Under the pieces are notes generated by a model that did not search any database, had not been told where the DNA came from, and worked only from the letters and a program-made list of their open reading frames with translations. The position numbers were made by a program, and so were the translations under genes. Shown here one piece after another: positions 8,628 through 26,584 of a stretch of DNA of 64,000 nucleotides. Position 1 is the stretch's first letter. The number at the start of each line of letters is the position of its first letter. Source of the stretch: a virus; IMG/VR virus record IMGVR_UViG_3300045988_154892. The stretch is one strand, 5' to 3'.

Positions 8628-8891
8628 ATGGTAAACAAATATGATAACATACAGGACACAACAGATAAAATCTATGAATTTTGCAAAGACTACATTTTTG
8701 AGCATGGTTATGCTCCGTCTTATGACGAGATTGGAAAAGGTGTTGGAATTAAAAGCAAAGGCACTATCCATTGTAATATGCATAAATTATTGAAAGAAGG
8801 TAGAATTGCAACAGATTTAAAAGAACTTGCGTCCAGAGGGTTCCGTATTTCTGGTTATATTATCATGCCGATAGGTGTAGATAAAAGATGA
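8628..8891 (+). CDS. LexA N-terminal DNA-binding-domain-like protein without a peptidase domain
   Basis: HGYAPSYDEIGKGVGIKSKGTIHCNMHKLLKEGRI parallels the B. subtilis LexA wHTH GYPPSVREIGEAVGL..STVHGHLARLETKGLI (from memory); only 87 aa. Confidence 0.65.
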   Translation: MVNKYDNIQDTTDKIYEFCKDYIFEHGYAPSYDEIGKGVGIKSKGTIHCNMHKLLKEGRIATDLKELASRGFRISGYIIMPIGVDKR

Positions 8892-17941: not shown

Positions 17942-18475
17942 ATGAAATTAGAAAATATTAGTAAATACATGTGTTTAATTCTCAGACATAAACCAGAAGC
18001 AATTGGCATTACTTTGGATGAACATGGGTGGGCTAATGTCGTCGAACTGATTGACGGGATTAGGAAAGACAATCCTGGATTCGATCTGGATCATCTGTAC
18101 GAGATAGTAAAAACAGATTCGAAGGGAAGATACTCTTTTAATGAAGATAAAACACTGATCAGATGCAACCAGGGACATTCGATTCCTGTAGATGTAGAGT
18201 TGGAAGAGAAACAGCCACCAGAATTTTTATATCATGGGACTGGCGAAAAATACGTAGTGTCAATCGATCAGATTGGGTTAATTCCAAAAAGCCGGTTATA
18301 TGTTCATCTTTCGAATGACGTTGATACTGCAGAAAAAGTCGGATAAAGACACGGAAAAGAAGTTGTATATCAGGTGGCATCTGGCCAGATGCATAGAGAT
18401 GGATATAAATTTTATTTGTCTGTGAATAATGTTTGGTTAACCAAAGAAGTGCCAATAAAATATTTAGAAAGGTAA
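17942..18475 (+). pseudogene. kptA: RNA 2'-phosphotransferase Tpt1/KptA interrupted by an in-frame TAA at 18344-18346
   Basis: [35 protein letters not shown]-stop-RHGKEVV...NNVWLTKEVP; the stop replaces the residue between VG and RHG; same frame reopens and runs to 18475. Confidence 0.8.
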
Positions 18476-19127: not shown

Positions 19128-19163
19128 GAAAGCGATGGCTGGTTTAGTCATCGCTTTCTTTAT
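19128..19163. terminator. bidirectional terminator between convergent genes
   Basis: 10-bp stem GAAAGCGATG / CATCGCTTTC; overlaps the stop of the minus-strand gene. Confidence 0.7.
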
Positions 19164-19473
19164 GATATGCTGCAGCTCTATAACGGAAATTCGCATCCTG
19201 GATTTCTTGTGAGATATGTTCCATTCGATCGATATATTCTGTAACATGTGATGGAATTTTTGTATCCCATTCGTTTTTATCGGAAGTAAGTAGATCGTTC
19301 GGGGTGCATTCTAATGCTTCACAAATTTTTTCAAGAGTTTCAAAGCGAATGCTTGCCATATTACCAGAACAAATTTTTGACACTGATGGTAAAGAGAGAT
19401 CAGTAGCTTCTGCAAATGCAGCTTGACTTTTATATTTAGTCAATATTAAATGTTGAATATCTAATTTAATCAT
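19144..19473 (-). CDS. XRE-family helix-turn-helix regulator (only minus-strand gene)
   Basis: SQAAFAEATDLSLPSVSKICSGN...FETLEKICEALECTPNDLL; ATG behind CGGAGGTG; start trimmed from 19491. Confidence 0.8.
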   Translation of the reverse strand: MIKLDIQHLILTKYKSQAAFAEATDLSLPSVSKICSGNMASIRFETLEKICEALECTPNDLLTSDKNEWDTKIPSHVTEYIDRMEHISQEIQDANFRYRAAAYHKESDD

Positions 19474-19522
19474 ATTGCACCTCCGTGTCAATGATTATAA
19501 CATAATTAAATAAGAAAATCTA

Positions 19523-19624
19523 TAAAGACATATTTATATAAATAAAGATAAATTGTGATATAATAGCAAAAATAATAAAGATATATTTATATTAAGCATT
19601 GACATATTAAAGATATGTTGATAT
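19523..19624. repeat. four TAAAGA-type direct repeats (operator candidates)
   Basis: TAAAGACATATTTATAT 19523, TAAAGATAAATTGTGATAT 19543, TAAAGATATATTTATAT 19576, TAAAGATATGTTGATAT 19608. Confidence 0.6.
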
Positions 19625-19627
19625 AAT
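19599..19627 (+). promoter_or_regulatory. consensus sigma-70 promoter facing the mazF-like gene
   Basis: TTGACA, 17 nt, TATAAT with TG extension; a second TGaTATAAT at 19556-19564. Confidence 0.7.
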
Positions 19628-19670
19628 GAGTTCAACGTAAGAAAAACAAGAGAGAAAGGAGGAACCGGGT

Positions 19671-20042
19671 ATGGATGTACATTGTGGCGAAATTAAACGT
19701 GGTGAAATCTATTGGGTAGATTTCGGGAAAACGAAAGGATCTGAACAGGGCGGAAAACGCCCAGCACTTGTTGTTCAAAATAACATTGGGAATAAACATT
19801 CTTCAACAACCATAGTCGTGACAATCACATCAAAAAGGAAGCCCAATCTTCCTACTCATGTCATTTTGGAAAAAGATGCGTTGAATGGATTAAGTTCCGA
19901 TTCGTTAGTAACATGTGAACAAATTAAAACAATAGATAAAGCTAGATTGTTGGATAAAATCGGAGAGATTAGTCCCAAAAAGCAAAAAGAAGTGAACAGA
20001 GCAATGCAGATTAGTTTGCAGACATTATTAATGGAGGGATGA
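19671..20042 (+). CDS. mazF: MazF/EndoA (PemK) family toxin without an upstream MazE
   Basis: GEIYWVDFGKTKGSEQGGKRPALVVQNNIGNKHSSTTIVVTITS...LPTHV and C-terminal AMQISL closely parallel B. subtilis EndoA (from memory). Confidence 0.85.
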   Translation: MDVHCGEIKRGEIYWVDFGKTKGSEQGGKRPALVVQNNIGNKHSSTTIVVTITSKRKPNLPTHVILEKDALNGLSSDSLVTCEQIKTIDKARLLDKIGEISPKKQKEVNRAMQISLQTLLMEG

Positions 20043-20046
20043 CAAG

Positions 20047-20349
20047 ATGATAGAAGCATATGAATACTCTGATTACAACCAAGCGATGCAGAAAATGAAA
20101 GAACTTGAAAAAAAGAACAAGAAGTACAAAATTCTTATTTATACAATTGATTATGATCAAAATGAAGAAAGTAAAAAAATAACTACACCTGCAGAAGGGT
20201 GTAAATTAATTAAAAAAGCAAAAACTATTTTCCTTAACAGAGATGAAATAATCGAACATATGCAATTATATTCTACGATACAAGATATCGAACACATCAA
20301 TCGAGAAGGTATTATGCATGACATTATTCTACCACATCTAAGAGAATGA
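20047..20349 (+). CDS. hypothetical protein 4 nt downstream of the toxin (antitoxin candidate)
   Basis: ATG behind GGAGGG; no recognisable domain. Confidence 0.5.
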   Translation: MIEAYEYSDYNQAMQKMKELEKKNKKYKILIYTIDYDQNEESKKITTPAEGCKLIKKAKTIFLNRDEIIEHMQLYSTIQDIEHINREGIMHDIILPHLRE

Positions 20350-20436
20350 AATGGAAATATTTACCTCTGTAATATACATGTCAAGAGGTATAAAATGGAA
20401 ATATAAGGAAAAACAAAATTATAGTAGCGCAAACAA

Positions 20437-20497
20437 ATGTTCGAAAACATATTGACAAGAACATTAGTTCGATGTATTATAATTTTGTCGAACAAAA
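20437..20497 (+). promoter_or_regulatory. consensus promoter embedded in three palindromic operators, the middle one a Gram-positive SOS (Cheo) box
   Basis: TTGACA 20452-20457, 17 nt, TATTAT 20475-20480. Palindromes: ATGTTCGAAAACAT 20437-20450; AGAACATTAGTTCG 20458-20471 (GAAC-N4-GTTC); TTTTGTCGAACAAAA 20483-20497. Confidence 0.6.
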
Positions 20498-20503
20498 TAA
20501 AAG

Positions 20504-20610
20504 AAGGGAATCATACCTGCGTTGGAGCGCATACGGTATGAATCCCTTCCTATACATAACAAGCAAAACAAGCAATATTCATATGTTTAAGGTGTTGGAG
20601 CAGCTTAAAC
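20504..20610 (+). ncRNA. structured leader or sRNA candidate with two UUGGAG-loop hairpins
   Basis: Hairpin 20504-20548 (13 of 14 outer bp plus 4 inner bp) and hairpin 20585-20610 (7 plus 2 bp), both capped by G-UUGGAG-C. Confidence 0.35.
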
Positions 20611-20827
20611 GAATAATGGCAATGTCCTGCTTAAGTATCATTATACATATTAATTTGCAATTCTGCAAGTCTATCTTGAGTAGTTCGCTATTATTTCACA
20701 ATTTCATTAAAAGAGAATAGGAGAATAACAAATACGAAAAGGTACTTATTATTTCAAATGAAAATAAGAACCTGTATTAAAGTTACCTATTTTTAAAAAA
20801 CTAAATAAAAAAAGGAGTGATTAGAAA

Positions 20828-21511
20828 ATGCAGTACACTATCACAAATGGAAAATGTTGGGTAATTGAAAATCCAATGCGTCCAGGCGAGTATATGGCAT
20901 CAACTATGTCGTCTAGAGCAAAATACTTCACGTTCAAACAGGCAAAGAATCTGTTAAACTCACGGAACAAAAAGATGAGTTGGATTCGTCATGGATACTC
21001 AATGGTTGGAGACGATGGTAAAGCACCATCTGTTTCTCCGAAAGCAAAAGGTAACGGTGGTACTTTTTTAGCAGAGAATGATATCTTCGTTGATCTTACA
21101 TTGCTTGATCGGATTGAGGATGAAACAGAAAAATATTTAAGTCTAGCTGGTTGGAATGAATCCGAACTGAGTAATATATCAGAATCGCTTAATACATATT
21201 TGTCAAAACTTGACTCTGAAGAGAGTGATATTAAACATGCTTTGGTTATTTACGCACATAATCACAATGGAAAAATGCCACAGGCTCACAAAATTGCAAA
21301 AGTTGGTTATATGTTTTTACATATTTTAATTGATCGAGCGCACGTCAAGGCATGTATGAGAAAAGTAACTACTATGAAGAATGCTCTTACATGCTCATAC
21401 TCCATTGGAAAATTACAGCATGAATTAAGCAAAAGTGAGAATGGAGAATATAGCGAATATAAACCAAGAACTGCAAAGTTTGAAGAAACTATGAAAATAT
21501 TAGAAGGGTAG
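20828..21511 (+). CDS. hypothetical protein, apparent paralog of 7271-7840
   Basis: ATG behind AAAGGAGTG. Confidence 0.55.
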   Translation: MQYTITNGKCWVIENPMRPGEYMASTMSSRAKYFTFKQAKNLLNSRNKKMSWIRHGYSMVGDDGKAPSVSPKAKGNGGTFLAENDIFVDLTLLDRIEDETEKYLSLAGWNESELSNISESLNTYLSKLDSEESDIKHALVIYAHNHNGKMPQAHKIAKVGYMFLHILIDRAHVKACMRKVTTMKNALTCSYSIGKLQHELSKSENGEYSEYKPRTAKFEETMKILEG

Positions 21512-21521
21512 GGTGGAAATT

Positions 21522-22232
21522 ATGAGATACAAGTATTTAACAGAGACTCAAATAGAGAAATTAGAATCTCTTACGCCAGAAGAAGCAGAAAAAATTCAGC
21601 AAACGTATTTAGATGATGATATGCGTGAGCTTAAAAAAATCTGCAAAACTTTGATTTACAAAAAGAAAAAATCATCGCAGGATTTACCGACACTTCATGA
21701 TGCAGAACTTGAAAGCCTAGCAGTAGAAGTTTTTCTGTCAAGTTTACTCAAATATAATTCGGATGTCAAATGCACTTTTAAAACGTATTTATATGGAAAT
21801 ATTTGGAGAAAATATTGGACATATACAAGAGATATCGAACGTAAAAAACGCTGTGTTTTTGTTCCAGATATTGATGAAGAAACTGGCAAGCAAAAAGTTG
21901 ACAAAGAAGGAAATCCTAAAGAGAAGCCTGTATTTGATATCTCCATATATTCTCAAATCGATGAAAATGGAATGCAACTCTGGGAAACATTTGTATCTGG
22001 AAAAACCGTGGAAGATGTCGTCTTTCAAAATGATCAAGAAATGTCATCTGCGATGAGAGAATATACTAATAAGTTATCAAGAGTACAGAGTGTAATTTTA
22101 CATATGCTTGCAGATGGATTTAATGAAGAAGAAATTCTTCAGAATTTACATATTTCTAAGTCACTCTATAACGATAGCTTAAAAGCTATCCGGAACAACT
22201 CAAATACAAGAATACTTAGGAGGGATTATTAA
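21522..22232 (+). CDS. sigma-70-family (ECF-like) sigma factor candidate
   Basis: Region-2-like FKTYLYGNIWRKYWTYTRD and region-4 HTH LSRVQSVILHMLADGFNEEEILQNLHISKSLYNDSLKAIRN. Confidence 0.6.
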   Translation: MRYKYLTETQIEKLESLTPEEAEKIQQTYLDDDMRELKKICKTLIYKKKKSSQDLPTLHDAELESLAVEVFLSSLLKYNSDVKCTFKTYLYGNIWRKYWTYTRDIERKKRCVFVPDIDEETGKQKVDKEGNPKEKPVFDISIYSQIDENGMQLWETFVSGKTVEDVVFQNDQEMSSAMREYTNKLSRVQSVILHMLADGFNEEEILQNLHISKSLYNDSLKAIRNNSNTRILRRDY

Positions 22233-23734
22233 TGTTAGATGAATACAGAATCGAACAGATGGGCGTAGGAGCTTATGTTGATAGTATTGATGAGGAAGTT
22301 ATTACTGTTGATCAGGCAGTCCAGAGAGCGTTTTGTTGGTCAAATGAAATGATCAATAATTTGATTTATAGTACTGTATCTCCAAAACGGATTTACATTC
22401 CAAACATTATTCTTGCAGAAGAAAAAAGAGAAGATGGGCTTACTACTACATACGTAGTGGACGGTGGTCAGAGAACCGAAGCGCTCAGACGTTTTGTATT
22501 TGATGGGCATAAGATCTCTAAATCAATCCGGAATAGATATGTGACTTATCAAGGAAACAAACTGGATAAAAATGGAAAACCTATGAGAGATGAAAATGGA
22601 AAACTGATCAAAGAAATCAAAACATTTGATCTGGTTAATAAAACTTATAATGATTTTCCACCAGAACTGAAAAAGAGAATGAGATCATGTCAGTTGTCTG
22701 CTGCAATTTATCAGGAATGTACTCCAGAAGATACCTGCGATCTTGTCATGTTATATAACTCTACTATTCCAATGAATGTAAGCCAGAAGGCGTTTACTTA
22801 CATTGGTACATTTGCGGATAAAATTAAACGGATTAAAGATAATAATCGTTTTCTTAAAGATTGTACGATGCTGAATGAGTTAGACAAGAAAAAAGGCATC
22901 TGGGAAAGAGTGATCATCGAATGCGTTATGGCGATGTTTCATTTAGAAGAATGGAAAAAGGCGCCAAGGGATATCTGCAAGTATCTTAATGAGAACGGAA
23001 CAGAAGAAGAATTTGATACACTGAACAAATACTTTAATATGTTAATTCCTTACGCAGATAAACTCGATCATACAGAAGTAGCTGAATTATTTGTGTCAAA
23101 AGATTTTATGGCATGGATGACTCTTATGAAAAGAGTCTTAGATGAAGGAGTTTCACCAGAAAATTTTGGAAAATTCCTGATTGCATTTAATGACATGAAA
23201 GAAATCAAAGTCAATGATACTGATTGGATTGAAATAGAACAGGATAAACACACAAAGGACAAGAAAGTAATTCAGCAGAAAATTGATTATTTACATACTT
23301 TATTAGTGGATTTTTTACATATTAAAGAGAATAAACATAATGAAGATGCAGAGAGCGAAAGTATCAAAGACTCATCAAAAAATTCAGAGGGTGAAGAATC
23401 TGCAATCATTGGTGTTGATGATCGTATTGATCAGAATGATATTGATTTTGTACATACTCATGTAAATGAGAAAGTAGATCCAGACGACATCGAATTTTAC
23501 AACGAGTGTCTGCAGGATACAAAAGTGTCTGCAAATGTTTATCAGCAGTGTAAAACAGCGTTAATTGCATTGATGGTTTATGCAGCGCAGAATAATCAGG
23601 ATCAGGAATTTGAACAGTGGATTGGAGAATATCAGAATGCAGATGATGAATATAGTTCCAATCAGGGTATTAATTTCAGATTCATGAAACGAGATTTCGA
23701 AAATTTTCTTATTAGAAAAGGAAACGCAGCGTAA
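22232..23734 (+). CDS. DUF262 domain protein with long C-terminal extension
   Basis: AVQRAFCWS ... VVDGGQRTEALRRF; no His-Me/DUF1524 nuclease motif seen. Confidence 0.75.
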   Translation: MLDEYRIEQMGVGAYVDSIDEEVITVDQAVQRAFCWSNEMINNLIYSTVSPKRIYIPNIILAEEKREDGLTTTYVVDGGQRTEALRRFVFDGHKISKSIRNRYVTYQGNKLDKNGKPMRDENGKLIKEIKTFDLVNKTYNDFPPELKKRMRSCQLSAAIYQECTPEDTCDLVMLYNSTIPMNVSQKAFTYIGTFADKIKRIKDNNRFLKDCTMLNELDKKKGIWERVIIECVMAMFHLEEWKKAPRDICKYLNENGTEEEFDTLNKYFNMLIPYADKLDHTEVAELFVSKDFMAWMTLMKRVLDEGVSPENFGKFLIAFNDMKEIKVNDTDWIEIEQDKHTKDKKVIQQKIDYLHTLLVDFLHIKENKHNEDAESESIKDSSKNSEGEESAIIGVDDRIDQNDIDFVHTHVNEKVDPDDIEFYNECLQDTKVSANVYQQCKTALIALMVYAAQNNQDQEFEQWIGEYQNADDEYSSNQGINFRFMKRDFENFLIRKGNAA

Positions 23735-24417: not shown

Positions 24418-24539
24418 GGTCATGCGATTTAACATGCCTAAAAATGAGGTCGGAAATGGTTCCCGACGCACTCTGTAAAGAGTACCTGAGATGATGGTTA
24501 CGCCGCCCATCCATTTTTGGCATTTCAAATCGCATGACT
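24418..24539 (+). ncRNA. tRNA-like cloverleaf RNA closed by a long helix (Y-RNA-like?)
   Basis: P1 24419-24430/24527-24538; P2 24434-24446/24512-24523; three 5-bp hairpins 24449-24467, 24470-24483 (GUAA loop), 24493-24511; locally GC-richer, no plausible ORF. Confidence 0.55.
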
Positions 24540-25381: not shown

Positions 25382-26584
25382 ATTAAAATACAAAGATGTG
25401 AACAAATAATAATAAGAAAAACTCATCCTAAATTTAAAGTGATTGACCAGCAATGTTTTCATTCAAAGAATCTATACAATGAAGCTAATTATACAATTCG
25501 ACAAGAGTTTATAAAAAATAAAAGTTATATTAGTTATTATGATATGAATCGAGATTTTAAAACTCATGAAAATTATAAACTTACATTTAGCCAACCAGCG
25601 AATTGTATTTTGAGGTTGCTTGATAAGAATTGGAAATCTTATTTTAATGCAATAAAAGATTGGAAGCAGCATCCTGAGAAATATTTTGGGATGCCAAAAC
25701 TTCCAAAATATCTTAAAAAGGATGGAAGATACTTATGGATAATCCCTAACAATCAATGCCATTATGACTATGAAAAAAGTGCTGTGCATTTAAGCAATAG
25801 ACTGGTAAATGATTATGAATGGAAATGTAGATGTTTGGGGCGATTAATTCAAGTCAGATTTATTCCAAGAGGATCGTGTTATGTGATGGAAATTGTATAT
25901 GAAATAGAAGTTCCTAATACGAACAGAAAATCAAAGAATATAGTAGCTATTGATTTAGGTGTAGCTAATCTTGTAACTATGACAAATAATATCGGATTAA
26001 ATCCAATTATTATTAACGGCAAGGGACTCAAAAGTATAAATCAATATTATAATAAAAGACTTGCAAAAGAAAAATCGTCACTAAAGATCAGAAATGGTAA
26101 AGATTGGTCAAGGAAACTTAATATTATAACTTTTAAAAGATTTCAGAGAATAAAGAATTATATGCATAATACGAGTCGTTATATTGTCAATTGGTGTATC
26201 AAAAATAACATTGACACATTGGTTGTTGGTAAGAACGATGAGTGGAAACAAGGAAAGAAACGTATGCAGAATTTTACATTTATTCCATACGAAATATTAT
26301 TACAACAACTTAAATACAAATGTGAAAACGCTGGGATTAATTACATTGAGACTAATGAAAGTTATACATCTGGAACAAGTTTTTTAGATGAAGAAGAACC
26401 GACTAAACAAAACTATAATAAAGACAGACGAATTCAAAGAGGATTATTTAGAAGTAATTCTGGATTGCTTATTAATAGTGATGTAAATGGTTCGTTACAG
26501 ATTATGAAAAAAGTATTCCCAAAGGCGATTAGTCGATATGGGATAGAGGCTGTTCTAACGCCTATAGTTATAAATGCAGTGTAA
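25382..26584 (+). CDS. tnpB: TnpB (IS200/IS605 OrfB) RNA-guided nuclease family; non-canonical start
   Basis: IDLGVANLVT (RuvC-I), ETNESYTS, NGSLQI. Frame is open from 25364. First canonical start (GTG 25439) would cut off the N-terminal IKIQRCEQIIIRK. ATT 25382 lies 9 nt after GGAGG. Confidence 0.75.
   Translation: MKIQRCEQIIIRKTHPKFKVIDQQCFHSKNLYNEANYTIRQEFIKNKSYISYYDMNRDFKTHENYKLTFSQPANCILRLLDKNWKSYFNAIKDWKQHPEKYFGMPKLPKYLKKDGRYLWIIPNNQCHYDYEKSAVHLSNRLVNDYEWKCRCLGRLIQVRFIPRGSCYVMEIVYEIEVPNTNRKSKNIVAIDLGVANLVTMTNNIGLNPIIINGKGLKSINQYYNKRLAKEKSSLKIRNGKDWSRKLNIITFKRFQRIKNYMHNTSRYIVNWCIKNNIDTLVVGKNDEWKQGKKRMQNFTFIPYEILLQQLKYKCENAGINYIETNESYTSGTSFLDEEEPTKQNYNKDRRIQRGLFRSNSGLLINSDVNGSLQIMKKVFPKAISRYGIEAVLTPIVINAV

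What the first reader, a model, noticed from the sequence alone, without database searches (positions are those of the whole stretch)
20348..20827. 480-bp ORF-poor region: SOS-box promoter with three related palindromes, then a leader with twin UUGGAG-loop hairpins
A TTGACA-17-TATTAT promoter (20452-20480) is overlapped by AGAACATTAGTTCG (a GAAC-N4-GTTC Cheo-type box) in its spacer. It is flanked by ATGTTCGAAAACAT (20437) and TTTTGTCGAACAAAA (20483). That makes three operators sharing a TTCGAA/GTTCG core, reminiscent of a tripartite switch. About 330 nt follow before the next SD. They contain a long hairpin (20504-20548) and a second one (20585-20610) whose apical loops are the same hexamer, UUGGAG, closed by G-C. 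GGA-in-loop hairpins are the known binding format of CsrA-type regulators, and GGAG is the known target of T4 RegB, so a sponge, decoy or processing role is conceivable. A 12-nt direct repeat AAATGGAAATAT (20348, 20393) flanks another hairpin (20363-20389). The 82-codon ORF called here has no SD and a hydrophobic low-complexity product.
Basis: partly seen in the sequence, partly recalled or inferred. Interest (0 to 1): 0.68.

Follow-up and report, generated by a model that had tools for sequence, protein, structure and literature searches.

The report
SOS-controlled phage promoter facing an antisense RNA
In a large gut-bacterial (Lachnospiraceae) phage, a DNA-damage-controlled promoter for a sigma-factor operon runs head-on into a small antisense RNA gene, and the two "UUGGAG" hairpins belong to that antisense RNA rather than to a protein-binding leader.

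Summary
Comparison with more than 80 related phage and prophage loci changes what those features mean.

1. **SOS promoter.** The TTGACA-17-TATTAT promoter (20452-20480) has two LexA (Cheo-type) boxes, not three palindromes. They are CAAACAAATGTTCG (20430-20443) and AGAACATTAGTTCG (20458-20471). These are the only near-consensus boxes in the 64 kb window. They sit at the same positions in 32 and 36 of 37 promoter variants.

2. **Antisense small RNA.** The twin hairpins lie in a roughly 140-nt RNA gene on the minus strand.
   - It has its own sigma-A promoter (-35 at 20668-20663, -10 at 20645-20640).
   - Hairpin 2 is the tip of its 5' stem-loop.
   - Hairpin 1 plus UUUUAUUUU is its intrinsic terminator.
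   - The promoter, the terminator and stronger folding of the minus strand are conserved across lineages.

3. **Loops.** The loops are 6-7 nt and of the UUGGCG/CGCCAA type known from the plasmid antisense RNAs Inc RNA and CopA. Close relatives carry the loop flipped into its reverse complement. That rules out CsrA or RegB recognition and fits sense-antisense kissing.

The operon under control encodes a 227-aa protein of unknown function and a divergent sigma factor. The module is a new member of known kinds of system. Expression and LexA binding remain untested.

The parts
20430..20443 (.). LexA (Cheo-type) box 1, CAAACAAATGTTCG. It ends 8 nt upstream of the -35 and is centred near -50.
   Evidence: One mismatch to CGAACN4GTTCG. 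Invariant in close relatives. A box with at most 2 mismatches lies 7-11 nt upstream of the -35 in 32 of 37 promoter variants, against about 1% in background. Its reverse complement fits the C. difficile lexA/recA operator pattern GAAC-N4-GTTT (PMC4234289).
20452..20480 (+). Sense sigma-A promoter TTGACA-17-TATTAT. The inferred start is near 20487.
   Evidence: Matches 11 of 12 positions. A TTGAC[AT]-N16-18-TAnnnT promoter containing a box is found in most relatives. It is 100% identical where flanking genes are 68% identical. No other strong conserved + strand promoter lies before the ORF.
20458..20471 (.). LexA (Cheo-type) box 2, AGAACATTAGTTCG, filling the -35/-10 spacer.
   Evidence: The only exact GAAC-N4-GTTC in the window. 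A box with at most 2 mismatches is in the spacer or over the -10 in 36 of 37 promoter variants. G10, T11, T12, A3 and A4 are invariant.
20487..20827 (+). Long 5' leader of the SOS-driven operon. Its first ~145 nt are fully complementary to the antisense RNA.
   Evidence: Read from the sequence. It is non-coding, since indels break the 82-codon ORF. In relatives this interval also carries 1-2 tRNA genes.
20640..20668 (-). Antisense sigma-A promoter: -35 TTGCAG (20668-20663), 17-nt spacer, -10 TATAAT (20645-20640) preceded by TG.
   Evidence: TATGTATAAT at 20649-20640 on the minus strand. The equivalent TTGACT-17-TAAAAT/TATAAT is found at the same place in 20 of 22 lineages. Its footprints TACATA and AGTCAAG are the most conserved k-mers of the leaders, in 19 of 20 and 12 of 20, with fixed 15-nt spacing. 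Invariant in close relatives.
20494..20633 (-). Predicted ~140-nt cis-antisense small RNA. The ends are inferred, not mapped.
   Evidence: Lies between the promoter and the terminator. MFE -51 kcal/mol, z = -6.9. The minus strand is more stable than the plus strand in 21 of 22 lineages, by a mean of 8.8 kcal/mol. In 299 random window segments the plus strand is favoured by a mean of 4.7 kcal/mol. The region is 91-99.5% identical where neighbouring ORFs are 68-96% identical. No Rfam family matches.
20560..20633 (-). 5' long stem-loop of the antisense RNA. The loop is CUCCAA on the minus strand, TTGGAG on the + strand (20595-20600).
   Evidence: Fold. The stem is fully rewritten in the 76-89% clade while the loop is kept: 4 of 9 pairs have double changes, and there are G-U pairs on the minus strand.
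20502..20550 (-). It has a bulged upper stem. The loop is CUCCAA on the minus strand, TTGGAG on the + strand (20522-20527).
   Evidence: A hairpin followed directly by a U-tract on the minus strand is found in 36 of 40 distinct loci, with unrelated stem sequences. All 4 apical pairs show compensatory changes, and 8 of 16 pairs do in a subfamily. On the + strand the hairpin is followed by CUAUACAUAAC, which has no U-tract.
20486..20501 (-). U-tract of the terminator (UUUUAUUUUGUUCGAC on the minus strand).
   Evidence: AAATAAAA and TAAAAAAG are the most conserved 8-mers of the leaders.
20828..21511 (+). First gene of the controlled operon: a 227-aa protein of unknown function.
   Evidence: No match in Pfam, PHROGs, NCBIfam or PDB. 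The AlphaFold model is poor (pLDDT 56). It lies downstream of the module in more than 80 loci.
21513..22232 (+). Second gene: a divergent sigma-70-family factor of 239 aa.
   Evidence: The family profile hits solved sigma factors (8x6g_H E = 2.6e-4, SigI6 E = 1.1e-3). Sigma70_r2 is found in 2 of 7 family members, best E = 2.7e-6.
8628..8891 (+). gp8628: an 87-aa protein consisting only of a LexA DNA-binding domain. It is a candidate second reader of the boxes.
   Evidence: Pfam LexA_DNA_bind, E = 3.5e-8, 33.6 bits against a cutoff of 23.7. It is 97-100% conserved in 24 related contigs.

Best explanation
The region is a two-layer control module in front of the phage's sigma-factor operon.

**Layer 1, at the DNA.** A strong sigma-A promoter (20452-20480) carries two Cheo-type LexA boxes. 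One fills the -35/-10 spacer and the other is centred near -50. Host LexA, possibly together with or in competition with the phage's LexA-domain protein gp8628, keeps the promoter shut. DNA damage opens it. The reading of the sites is shown; binding is inferred.

**Layer 2, at the RNA.** About 150 bp downstream, a convergent sigma-A promoter on the minus strand makes a ~140-nt small RNA. This RNA is fully complementary to the first ~145 nt of the operon's leader. It ends at an intrinsic terminator just before the sense start site.

Both present the 6-nt loop CUCCAA. The sense leader presents the complementary UUGGAG, a YUNR/U-turn loop.

Inferred mechanism:
- The complementary loops kiss, as in CopA/CopT, Inc RNA/repZ and SR4/bsrG.
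- Pairing then spreads into a long duplex.
- Leaky leader transcripts are cut (RNase III) or otherwise inactivated.
- The convergent promoters also interfere with each other.

In a lysogen, LexA and the antisense RNA together would silence the operon. After SOS induction, the strong sense promoter would out-titrate and occlude the antisense promoter. The sigma factor and the 227-aa protein would then be made.
For: **LexA boxes**
- The only two near-consensus boxes in the 64 kb window are here.
- Their positions are conserved in 32 and 36 of 37 promoter variants, against ~1% background. The half-sites AAC and GTT are invariant while the spacers vary.
- They match clostridial LexA operators (PMC4234289).
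- The hosts are Lachnospiraceae, Eubacterium and Acetatifactor.
- The promoter with its boxes is 100% identical where neighbouring genes are 68% identical.
- A phage-encoded LexA-domain protein is present. The precedent is GIL01, which has tandem LexA boxes plus the truncated LexA homologue gp6 (PMC6182141).

**Antisense gene**
- A conserved minus-strand TTGACT-17-TAAAAT/TATAAT promoter.
- A hairpin plus U-tract on the minus strand in 36 of 40 distinct loci.
- The minus-strand fold is better in 21 of 22 lineages, against the opposite genome-wide bias.
- Compensatory changes occur in both hairpins, with G-U pairs on the minus strand.
- No strong + strand promoter lies downstream, so the sense transcript must cross the antisense gene.

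**Kissing loops**
- The loops are 6-7 nt on bulged stems. They read UUGGAG, UUGGCG, CUGGAA or UUGGAAG, or the exact reverse complements.
- UUGGCG is the loop motif of the ColIb-P9 Inc RNA target (Asano 1998, cited in PMC3753616). The YUNR U-turn in an initiating loop is described for bsrG/SR4 (PMC4152353).
- Within a genome the two loops change together: UUGGAG twice here, UUGGAAG twice in L017, CGGGAA twice in L286.
- Loop flips recur among close relatives (19 versus 13 loci, at least 2 events). A flip keeps sense-antisense complementarity but would destroy a protein-binding site.

**Operon content**
- A sigma-70-family protein.
Against: - No expression data exist. Both promoters, both RNA ends and LexA binding are predictions.
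- In the window's own clade the antisense -35 is weak (TTGCAG, 3 of 6), although the -10 is perfect.
- Identical twin loops occur only in some lineages. In others the 5' hairpin of the antisense RNA has an unrelated loop, so a two-loop kiss is not universal.
- The antisense RNA does not overlap the SD, which lies ~180 nt further on. No attenuator-type terminator was found, so how pairing lowers expression is not established.
- The boxes could be read by gp8628 alone.
- Some relatives lack the boxes because of insertion-sequence insertions.
- The function of the 227-aa protein is unknown.
Confidence: 0.7

Rival explanations
1. The hairpins act in the sense leader as GGA/GGAG-loop binding sites for a CsrA-type protein or a RegB-like nuclease, serving as a sponge, decoy or processing site.
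For: The two loops in this window are identical and contain GGA and GGAG. They lie in a long 5' leader.
Against: - GGA and GGAG are not conserved. Relatives have UUGGCG or CGGGAA, and many have CGCCAA, CUCCAA, AGCCAA or CUGCAA on the + strand.
- The loop flips between close relatives.
- The structure is better on the minus strand.
- Hairpin 1 is followed by a U-tract only on the minus strand.
- RegB belongs to T4-type coliphages.
Confidence: 0.04
2. The minus-strand transcript exists but acts only through convergent transcription (promoter occlusion or polymerase collision), or is a by-product. Hairpin 1 is merely its terminator, and the loop similarity is inherited rather than selected.
For: Convergent promoters ~190 bp apart are a known interference layout. 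The terminator function of hairpin 1 is the best-supported feature. The loops of the 5' hairpin differ in several lineages.
Against: - Stems have diverged completely between lineages, yet the loop stays in the UUGGNG/CNCCAA class.
- The two loops co-vary within genomes.
- Hairpin 2 was rewritten with the loop intact.
- Conserved bulges near the loop are typical of kissing antisense RNAs (own knowledge of CopA and Inc RNA).
Confidence: 0.15
3. The boxes are operators for the phage's own LexA-domain protein gp8628, acting as activator or repressor, rather than for host LexA. The promoter would then be timed by the phage, not induced by SOS.
For: gp8628 has a LexA DNA-binding domain and no cleavage domain. 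In GIL01 the equivalent gp6 activates a late promoter through LexA-like sites (PMC6182141). Box 1, centred near -50, is placed as an activator site would be.
Against: - The boxes fit the host-type consensus closely, including perfect CGAACN4GTTCG in some relatives.
- gp8628 was found only in the close clades with the search used, whereas the boxes occur in all lineages.
- The two readings are not exclusive.
Confidence: 0.2
4. A DNA-level element such as a cruciform, a recombination or inversion site, or an origin. The palindromes and loop flips would reflect DNA transactions rather than RNA function.
For: Loop inversion between identical stems is a DNA event. IS605/TnpB-type insertions sit next to the hairpin in some relatives.
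Against: - There is strand asymmetry with G-U pairs.
- The hairpins have fixed positions between a promoter and a U-tract.
- A 6-15 nt invertible segment is too short for known invertases. Such flips are better explained as template-switch mutations at hairpins (own knowledge).
Confidence: 0.04

Closest known systems
Phage P22 immI: sar antisense RNA against the ant (antirepressor) leader (own knowledge; Wagner, Altuvia & Romby 2002 review cited in PMC7067206)
   Same: A small RNA is made from a promoter inside the leader of an induction-related gene, convergent with that gene's promoter. The layout combines antisense pairing with promoter interference.
   Different: sar is ~69 nt and covers the ant ribosome-binding site. 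Pant is controlled by Mnt and Arc, not LexA. There are no paired UUGG/CCAA loops. The host is Gram-negative. There is no sequence relationship.
Plasmid countertranscripts CopA/CopT (R1) and Inc RNA/repZ (ColIb-P9, I-complex RNAI)
   Same: 6-nt recognition loops reading 5'-UUGGCG-3' on one RNA and CGCCAA on the other (Asano 1998, cited in PMC3753616). Upper stems are bulged. The antisense RNA ends in its own stem-loop. Some relatives here carry exactly UUGGCG/CGCCAA.
   Different: Those systems control plasmid replication by blocking translation or a pseudoknot. Here the target is the far 5' end of a phage operon leader, ~180 nt from the SD. The loop here is UUGGAG. No homology was detected (Rfam).
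Bacillus phage GIL01 promoters P1/P3 with host LexA, gp7 and the truncated LexA homologue gp6 (PMC6182141)
   Same: Tandem Cheo-type LexA boxes within a lytic promoter of a Firmicute phage. The phage encodes a protein that has only the LexA DNA-binding domain.
   Different: GIL01 is a 15-kb tectivirus. No antisense RNA is described there. No gp7 homologue was looked for here. Binding was not tested here.
LexA-repressed antirepressor genes of prophages (coliphage 186 Tum; Gifsy GfoA/GfhA/GftA; PMC7067206 citing Lemire 2011)
   Same: A prophage with a non-cleavable HTH repressor places a separate induction gene under a host LexA box. That review suggests post-transcriptional control of such transcripts.
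   Different: The operon here starts with an unknown 227-aa protein and a sigma factor. An antirepressor role is not shown.
Bacillus subtilis type I toxin-antitoxin pair bsrG/SR4 (PMC4152353)
   Same: A Firmicute cis-antisense RNA whose terminator loop makes the first loop-loop contact with a YUNR loop in the target. Degradation follows.
   Different: The target there is a small toxin mRNA overlapped at its 3' end. No toxin ORF lies in this leader.

Membership tests
Cheo-type (Firmicute) LexA operator | Palindrome CGAAC-N4-GTTCG (core GAAC-N4-GTTC, or GTTT in clostridia) | tested here: met
   20458-20471 and 20430-20443 each have 1 mismatch. They are the only such sites in the 64 kb window. 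The motif is given in PMC4234289.
Cheo-type (Firmicute) LexA operator | Overlaps or abuts core promoter elements, at a conserved position in related genomes | tested here: met
   Box 2 is in the spacer or over the -10 in 36 of 37 variants. Box 1 is 7-11 nt upstream of the -35 in 32 of 37.
Cheo-type (Firmicute) LexA operator | Bound by LexA and derepressed by DNA damage | not testable with these tools
   Needs EMSA or footprinting and induction with mitomycin C.
cis-encoded antisense small RNA (countertranscript) | Its own promoter on the opposite strand, inside the target's transcribed region | tested here: met
   TTGCAG-17-TATAAT at 20668-20640 on the minus strand. A conserved TTGACT-17-TAAAAT/TATAAT is present in 20 of 22 lineages. 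This is a prediction from sequence only.
cis-encoded antisense small RNA (countertranscript) | Defined 3' end (intrinsic terminator) giving a short transcript | tested here: met
   A hairpin plus U-tract on the minus strand in 36 of 40 distinct loci, 85-160 nt from the promoter.
cis-encoded antisense small RNA (countertranscript) | Secondary structure conserved on the antisense strand | tested here: met
   z = -6.9. The minus strand is more stable in 21 of 22 lineages, against the opposite background bias. Compensatory pairs are present.
cis-encoded antisense small RNA (countertranscript) | The RNA is detectably expressed and lowers target expression | not testable with these tools
   No transcriptome data or genetics are available.
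Kissing-loop antisense systems with a UUGGCG/YUNR loop | 6-7 nt apical loop with 5'-YUNR on one partner, closed by G-C pairs, with a bulged upper stem | tested here: met
   The loop is UUGGAG on the sense RNA and CUCCAA on the antisense RNA, on a 4-bp G-C-rich cap above a 3-nt bulge. About 19 of 20 lineages have YUNR on one strand, by eye.
Kissing-loop antisense systems with a UUGGCG/YUNR loop | Fast loop-loop association that depends on the loop sequence | not testable with these tools
   Needs binding kinetics with loop mutants.
CsrA/RsmA binding RNA | GGA conserved in hairpin loops across homologues | tested here: not met
   Loops in relatives read UUGGCG or CGGGAA, or are reverse-complemented on the + strand to CGCCAA, AGCCAA or CUGCAA.
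T4 RegB target | Conserved GGAG in a T4-type phage that encodes RegB | tested here: not met
   GGAG is not conserved. The phage infects Lachnospiraceae. regB itself was not searched for.
Any Rfam 15 family (including pemK RNA RF02913) | Score at or above the gathering threshold | tested here: not met
   No hit lies in 20348-20827. The best is pemK at 14.5 bits against a threshold of 34.8. Relatives give only tRNAs.

The most novel reading that the evidence does not exclude
The module could be a three-input switch.
- Host LexA and the phage's truncated LexA (gp8628) would compete at the tandem boxes, with repression at the spacer box and activation from the -50 box, as with gp6 in GIL01.
- The antisense RNA would set the threshold for expression.
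- The recurrent flip of the hairpin loop would be a heritable, reversible toggle rather than neutral drift. It would move the U-turn (YUNR) loop from the target RNA to the antisense RNA, retuning pairing kinetics and hence the induction threshold of individual phage lineages. That would be a form of phase variation acting through an RNA loop.
Probability: 0.12. Interest if true: 0.75.

Novelty: new member of a known kind. Interest (0 to 1): 0.5.

Why it matters
- It defines a previously unlisted small RNA family and its promoter logic. There is no Rfam match and no GenBank phage match. The family occurs in a widespread group of 100-210 kb phages and prophages of human-gut Lachnospiraceae, for which no regulatory circuitry is known.
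- It identifies the likely master switch of these phages: an SOS-gated, antisense-guarded operon that encodes a phage sigma factor. It also gives concrete sites to test.
- The natural loop flips are an unusually clean comparative argument. They separate RNA-RNA recognition, which tolerates a flip, from protein recognition, which does not.
- For annotation, it shows that a 'structured leader' can be the mirror image of an antisense gene.

Tried and rejected
- **Similarity searches.** blastn of 19500-22300 against GenBank phages and PLSDB plasmids, and tblastn of the 227-aa protein against phages, gave no match.
- **Twin-loop pattern scans.** They were too unspecific and were not used.
- **Rfam.** Searches at gathering and permissive thresholds found nothing in the region. 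A 12/12 match to the 5' end of the pemK RNA model on the minus strand is below threshold (14.5 bits against 34.8), and most of it falls between the antisense -10 and its start site.
- **MazF idea.** I considered whether the conserved UACAUA could be cleavage sites for the adjacent EndoA-type MazF.
  - The downstream copy is the mirror image of the antisense -10 region (TATGTA).
  - TACAT is not depleted or otherwise special across the window (258 observed, 216 expected).
  - The idea was dropped as an explanation. The copy next to hairpin 1 remains unexplained.
- **Type I toxin.** The only ORF in the leader starts inside the promoter and is frameshifted in relatives.
- **Second + strand promoter.** None is strong or conserved between the antisense gene and the ORF.
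- **Structure of the 227-aa protein.** pLDDT was 56.5, so no fold search was run. The profile search against PDB was not significant.
- **Trans targets of the small RNA.** A duplex-energy scan over start regions gave uninterpretable output and was abandoned.
- **Hairpin at 20363-20389 as a conserved structure.** The stem is broken in relatives.
Full report
**Context.** The window is part of a low-GC (about 32%) phage genome in which nearly all genes are on the + strand.
- IMG/VR holds close relatives on contigs of 100-210 kb.
- More distant relatives are prophages in Lachnospiraceae, Eubacterium and Acetatifactor genomes.
- The finding lies in the gap between two gene groups.
  - Upstream are a MazF/EndoA-type toxin gene (19671-20042) and a 100-aa ORF (20047-20349).
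  - Downstream are a 227-aa protein of unknown function (20828-21511) and a 239-aa protein (21513-22232), followed by GmrSD_N/DUF262 and ParB-like genes.
- The 239-aa family is a divergent sigma-70 factor. Its profile hits solved sigma factors (E = 2.6e-4), and two members hit Sigma70_r2 (E = 2.7e-6).
- An XRE-type HTH gene lies on the minus strand at 19144-19491.
- This gene order is kept even where the 227-aa protein is only 42-45% identical.

**Checking the observation.**
- The promoter matches 11 of 12 consensus positions. Such matches are common in this AT-rich DNA (16 found, 15.5 expected), so on its own it proves little.
- The SOS-box content is not chance.
  - GAAC-N4-GTTC occurs once in 64 kb.
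  - The only two sites within one mismatch of CGAACN4GTTCG are both here: 20430-20443 and 20458-20471 (0.37 expected).
- The 82-codon ORF begins inside the promoter and is frameshifted in relatives by 2-nt and 8-nt indels.
- The non-coding region is more conserved than its neighbours.
  - The promoter with its boxes is 100% identical in relatives whose flanking genes are 68% identical at the DNA level.
  - The hairpin region is 91-99.5% identical in the same relatives.

**The operators.** I compared 37 distinct promoter variants from relatives.
- A Cheo-type box with at most 2 mismatches fills the spacer, or overlaps the -10, in 36 of them.
- A second box ends 7-11 nt upstream of the -35 in 32 of them.
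- About 1% of random 37-nt windows from the same loci reach that match.
- The half-sites (AAC...GTT) are invariant while the central four bases vary. Several relatives carry a perfect CGAACN4GTTCG.
- The pattern matches experimentally bound C. difficile operators, such as lexA AGGAACAAATGTTTGC (PMC4234289).
The overlapping box CAAACAAATGTTCG is.
- The third palindrome loses its CGAAC core in close relatives and is missing from distant ones. Its right arm is simply the A-run described below.
- The architecture is therefore tandem LexA boxes, not a tripartite switch.
- The phage also encodes gp8628, an 87-aa protein made only of a LexA DNA-binding domain. This parallels GIL01, where tandem LexA boxes in a lytic promoter are read by host LexA and by the truncated LexA homologue gp6 (PMC6182141).

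**The hairpins.** Relatives show that both hairpins are conserved as structures.
- Hairpin 2's stem is completely rewritten in the 76-89% clade while the loop is kept (GTTTAAGGTG/CAGCTTAAAC versus ATCTGAACTG/CAGTCCAGAT).
- Hairpin 1's lower stem differs in every lineage. Its 4-bp cap shows compensatory changes at all four pairs.

Three further observations place these hairpins on the other strand.
1. **A minus-strand promoter.** The most conserved k-mers of the leaders are TACATA (19 of 20 lineages) and AGTCAAG (12 of 20), spaced 15 nt apart. Read on the minus strand, these form a textbook sigma-A promoter, TTGACT-17-(TG)TAAAAT/TATAAT. It is present in 20 of 22 lineages, 95-165 nt downstream of the sense -10. 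In the window it is TTGCAG (20668-20663), 17 nt, then TATAAT (20645-20640).
2. **A minus-strand terminator.** Hairpin 1 is always preceded on the + strand by an A-run (AAATAAAA and TAAAAAAG are the top 8-mers). On the minus strand it is therefore a hairpin followed at once by a U-tract. That is an intrinsic terminator, found in 36 of 40 distinct loci. On the + strand no U-tract follows it.
3. **Better minus-strand folding.** The minus-strand RNA folds better than the plus-strand RNA in 21 of 22 lineages, by a mean of 8.8 kcal/mol and with more G-U pairs. In 299 random 120-nt segments of the window the plus strand is favoured by a mean of 4.7 kcal/mol, and only 0.7% reach a difference of -8.8. 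For the window itself, the minus strand gives -51 kcal/mol (z = -6.9) and the plus strand -46.7 kcal/mol (z = -5.5).

The hairpins are therefore the 5' stem-loop and the terminator of a ~140-nt antisense small RNA, running from about 20633 to about 20494. This RNA is complementary to the first ~145 nt of the SOS-driven leader.
- No Rfam family matches it.
- No strong + strand promoter lies between it and the ORF. The SOS transcript must therefore pass through the antisense gene.

**The loops.**
- On the + strand the apical loops read UUGGAG (window), UUGGAAG, UUGGCG, UUGGCAG, CUGGAA, CUGGGAA or CGGGAA. In other lineages they read the exact reverse complements: CGCCAA, CUCCAA, AGCCAA, CGGCAA or CUGCAA.
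- One clade of 32 loci has identical stems. In it, 19 loci carry the 15-nt apical segment in one orientation and 13 in the other. One 'UUGG' genome is nested among 'CCAA' genomes, so at least two inversions occurred.
- A sequence-specific protein site (CsrA GGA, RegB GGAG) would not survive such flips, and GGA is not conserved in any case.
- A sense-antisense pair does survive them. Both RNAs come from the same DNA, so their loops stay complementary. Only the strand that carries the 5'-YUNR (U-turn) loop changes.
[quoted passage not shown] In B. subtilis bsrG/SR4, a YUNR loop contacting the antisense RNA's terminator loop starts pairing (PMC4152353).
- The two loops change together within a genome: UUGGAG twice here, UUGGAAG twice in L017, CGGGAA twice in L286. 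This argues that the loops are selected as a pair, although twin loops are not found in every lineage.

**Mechanism, and how far it is shown.**
- *Shown by sequence and comparison:* tandem LexA-type boxes on a strong promoter; a convergent promoter-hairpin-terminator unit on the minus strand; structure conserved on that strand; UUGGCG-class loops that tolerate inversion; and a sigma-factor gene in the controlled operon.
- *Inferred:*
  - LexA, possibly with gp8628, represses the promoter in the lysogen.
  - The antisense RNA is made constitutively, kisses the nascent leader through the loops and forms a duplex.
  - This leads to RNase III cleavage or decay of leaky transcripts.
  - The convergent promoters interfere with each other.
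  - SOS induction lets the sense promoter win.
- *Not established:* how pairing at the 5' end lowers expression of genes that start ~180 nt beyond the overlap. I found no attenuator there.

**Comparison with known systems.**
- The layout works like P22 Pant/sar: an antisense RNA made from within the leader of an induction gene.
- The recognition loops resemble those of the plasmid countertranscripts CopA and Inc RNA.
- The promoter resembles GIL01 P3 and LexA-repressed antirepressor genes (Tum of coliphage 186, Gifsy phages; PMC7067206).
- It is not homologous to any of these. It is a new RNA family and a new combination of known parts, so I rate it a new member of known kinds.

**Unexplained.**
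- A conserved UAUGUA lies just 5' of the terminator in the antisense RNA.
- Conserved + strand blocks lie downstream of the antisense promoter: GCGATTCTGCAA and ACAATTnAATA(T)GGAGAATAA. A hairpin followed by UUAUUAAAGU sits just before the SD. These could be sites for the phage sigma factor or an attenuator.
- The direct repeat at 20346/20390 is specific to this clade.

Noticed in passing
window 24439-24519 (+): A full-length match to the skipping-rope RNA (RF02924; 72.1 bits against a gathering score of 36.7). It lies between the ParB-like/DUF5839 gene and a ClpP-type prohead protease gene.
   Followed up: no
window 8628-8891 (+): gp8628 is an 87-aa protein consisting only of a LexA DNA-binding domain (Pfam E = 3.5e-8). 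It is 97-100% conserved in 24 related contigs, ~12 kb upstream of the LexA-box promoter. It is analogous to GIL01 gp6.
   Followed up: partly
window 19599-20349 (+): An EndoA/MazF-type toxin gene (E = 8e-27 to B. subtilis EndoA, 4mdx) has no MazE gene upstream. It follows a perfect TTGACA-17-TATAAT promoter with TG (19599-19627). A conserved 100-aa ORF of unknown function follows and could be a reversed-order antitoxin. This pair always precedes the SOS module in relatives.
   Followed up: partly
L283, L288, L290, L292, L297, L342, L017 (leader between antisense promoter and the 227-aa gene): Many relatives carry one or two tRNA genes (for example tRNA-Gln in L017) inside the SOS-driven leader. 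There the transcript is also a tRNA precursor. The window's clade has none.
   Followed up: partly
L281/L340 (-520 to -230) and L284 (-520 to -250) relative to the 227-aa gene; window 25439-26584: TnpB/IS605-type elements occur in this genome (25439-26584). In some relatives they sit directly upstream of the 227-aa gene. In L284 an insertion replaces the LexA-box promoter but keeps hairpin 1 and the antisense promoter.
   Followed up: no
L294-L339 clade, apical 15 nt of hairpin 1: The hairpin tip is exactly inverted between identical stems in close relatives (19 versus 13 loci, at least two events on a neighbour-joining tree). This is a natural 'flip-flop' of an RNA recognition loop.
   Followed up: yes
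window 20669-20827 (+) and equivalent in relatives: Conserved + strand blocks lie downstream of the antisense promoter: GCGATTCTGCAA-like and ACAATTnAATA(T)GGAGAATAA. The GAGAATA unit is duplicated here and is variable by an 8-nt indel. A hairpin followed by UUAUUAAAGU sits just before the SD. Their function is unknown.
   Followed up: partly
window 17942-18346 (+): The Tpt1/KptA RNA 2'-phosphotransferase homologue is 134 aa here but 177 aa in relatives L015 and L019. It may be truncated or frameshifted in this genome.
   Followed up: no
window 20346-20404: The direct repeat ATGAAATGGAAATAT / ATAAAATGGAAATAT (44 nt apart) is real and conserved in the close clade but absent from distant relatives. 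The stem between the copies is broken in relatives. A weak minus-strand promoter-like site (TTGACA-17-AATATT, 20384-20356) lies inside it.
   Followed up: partly
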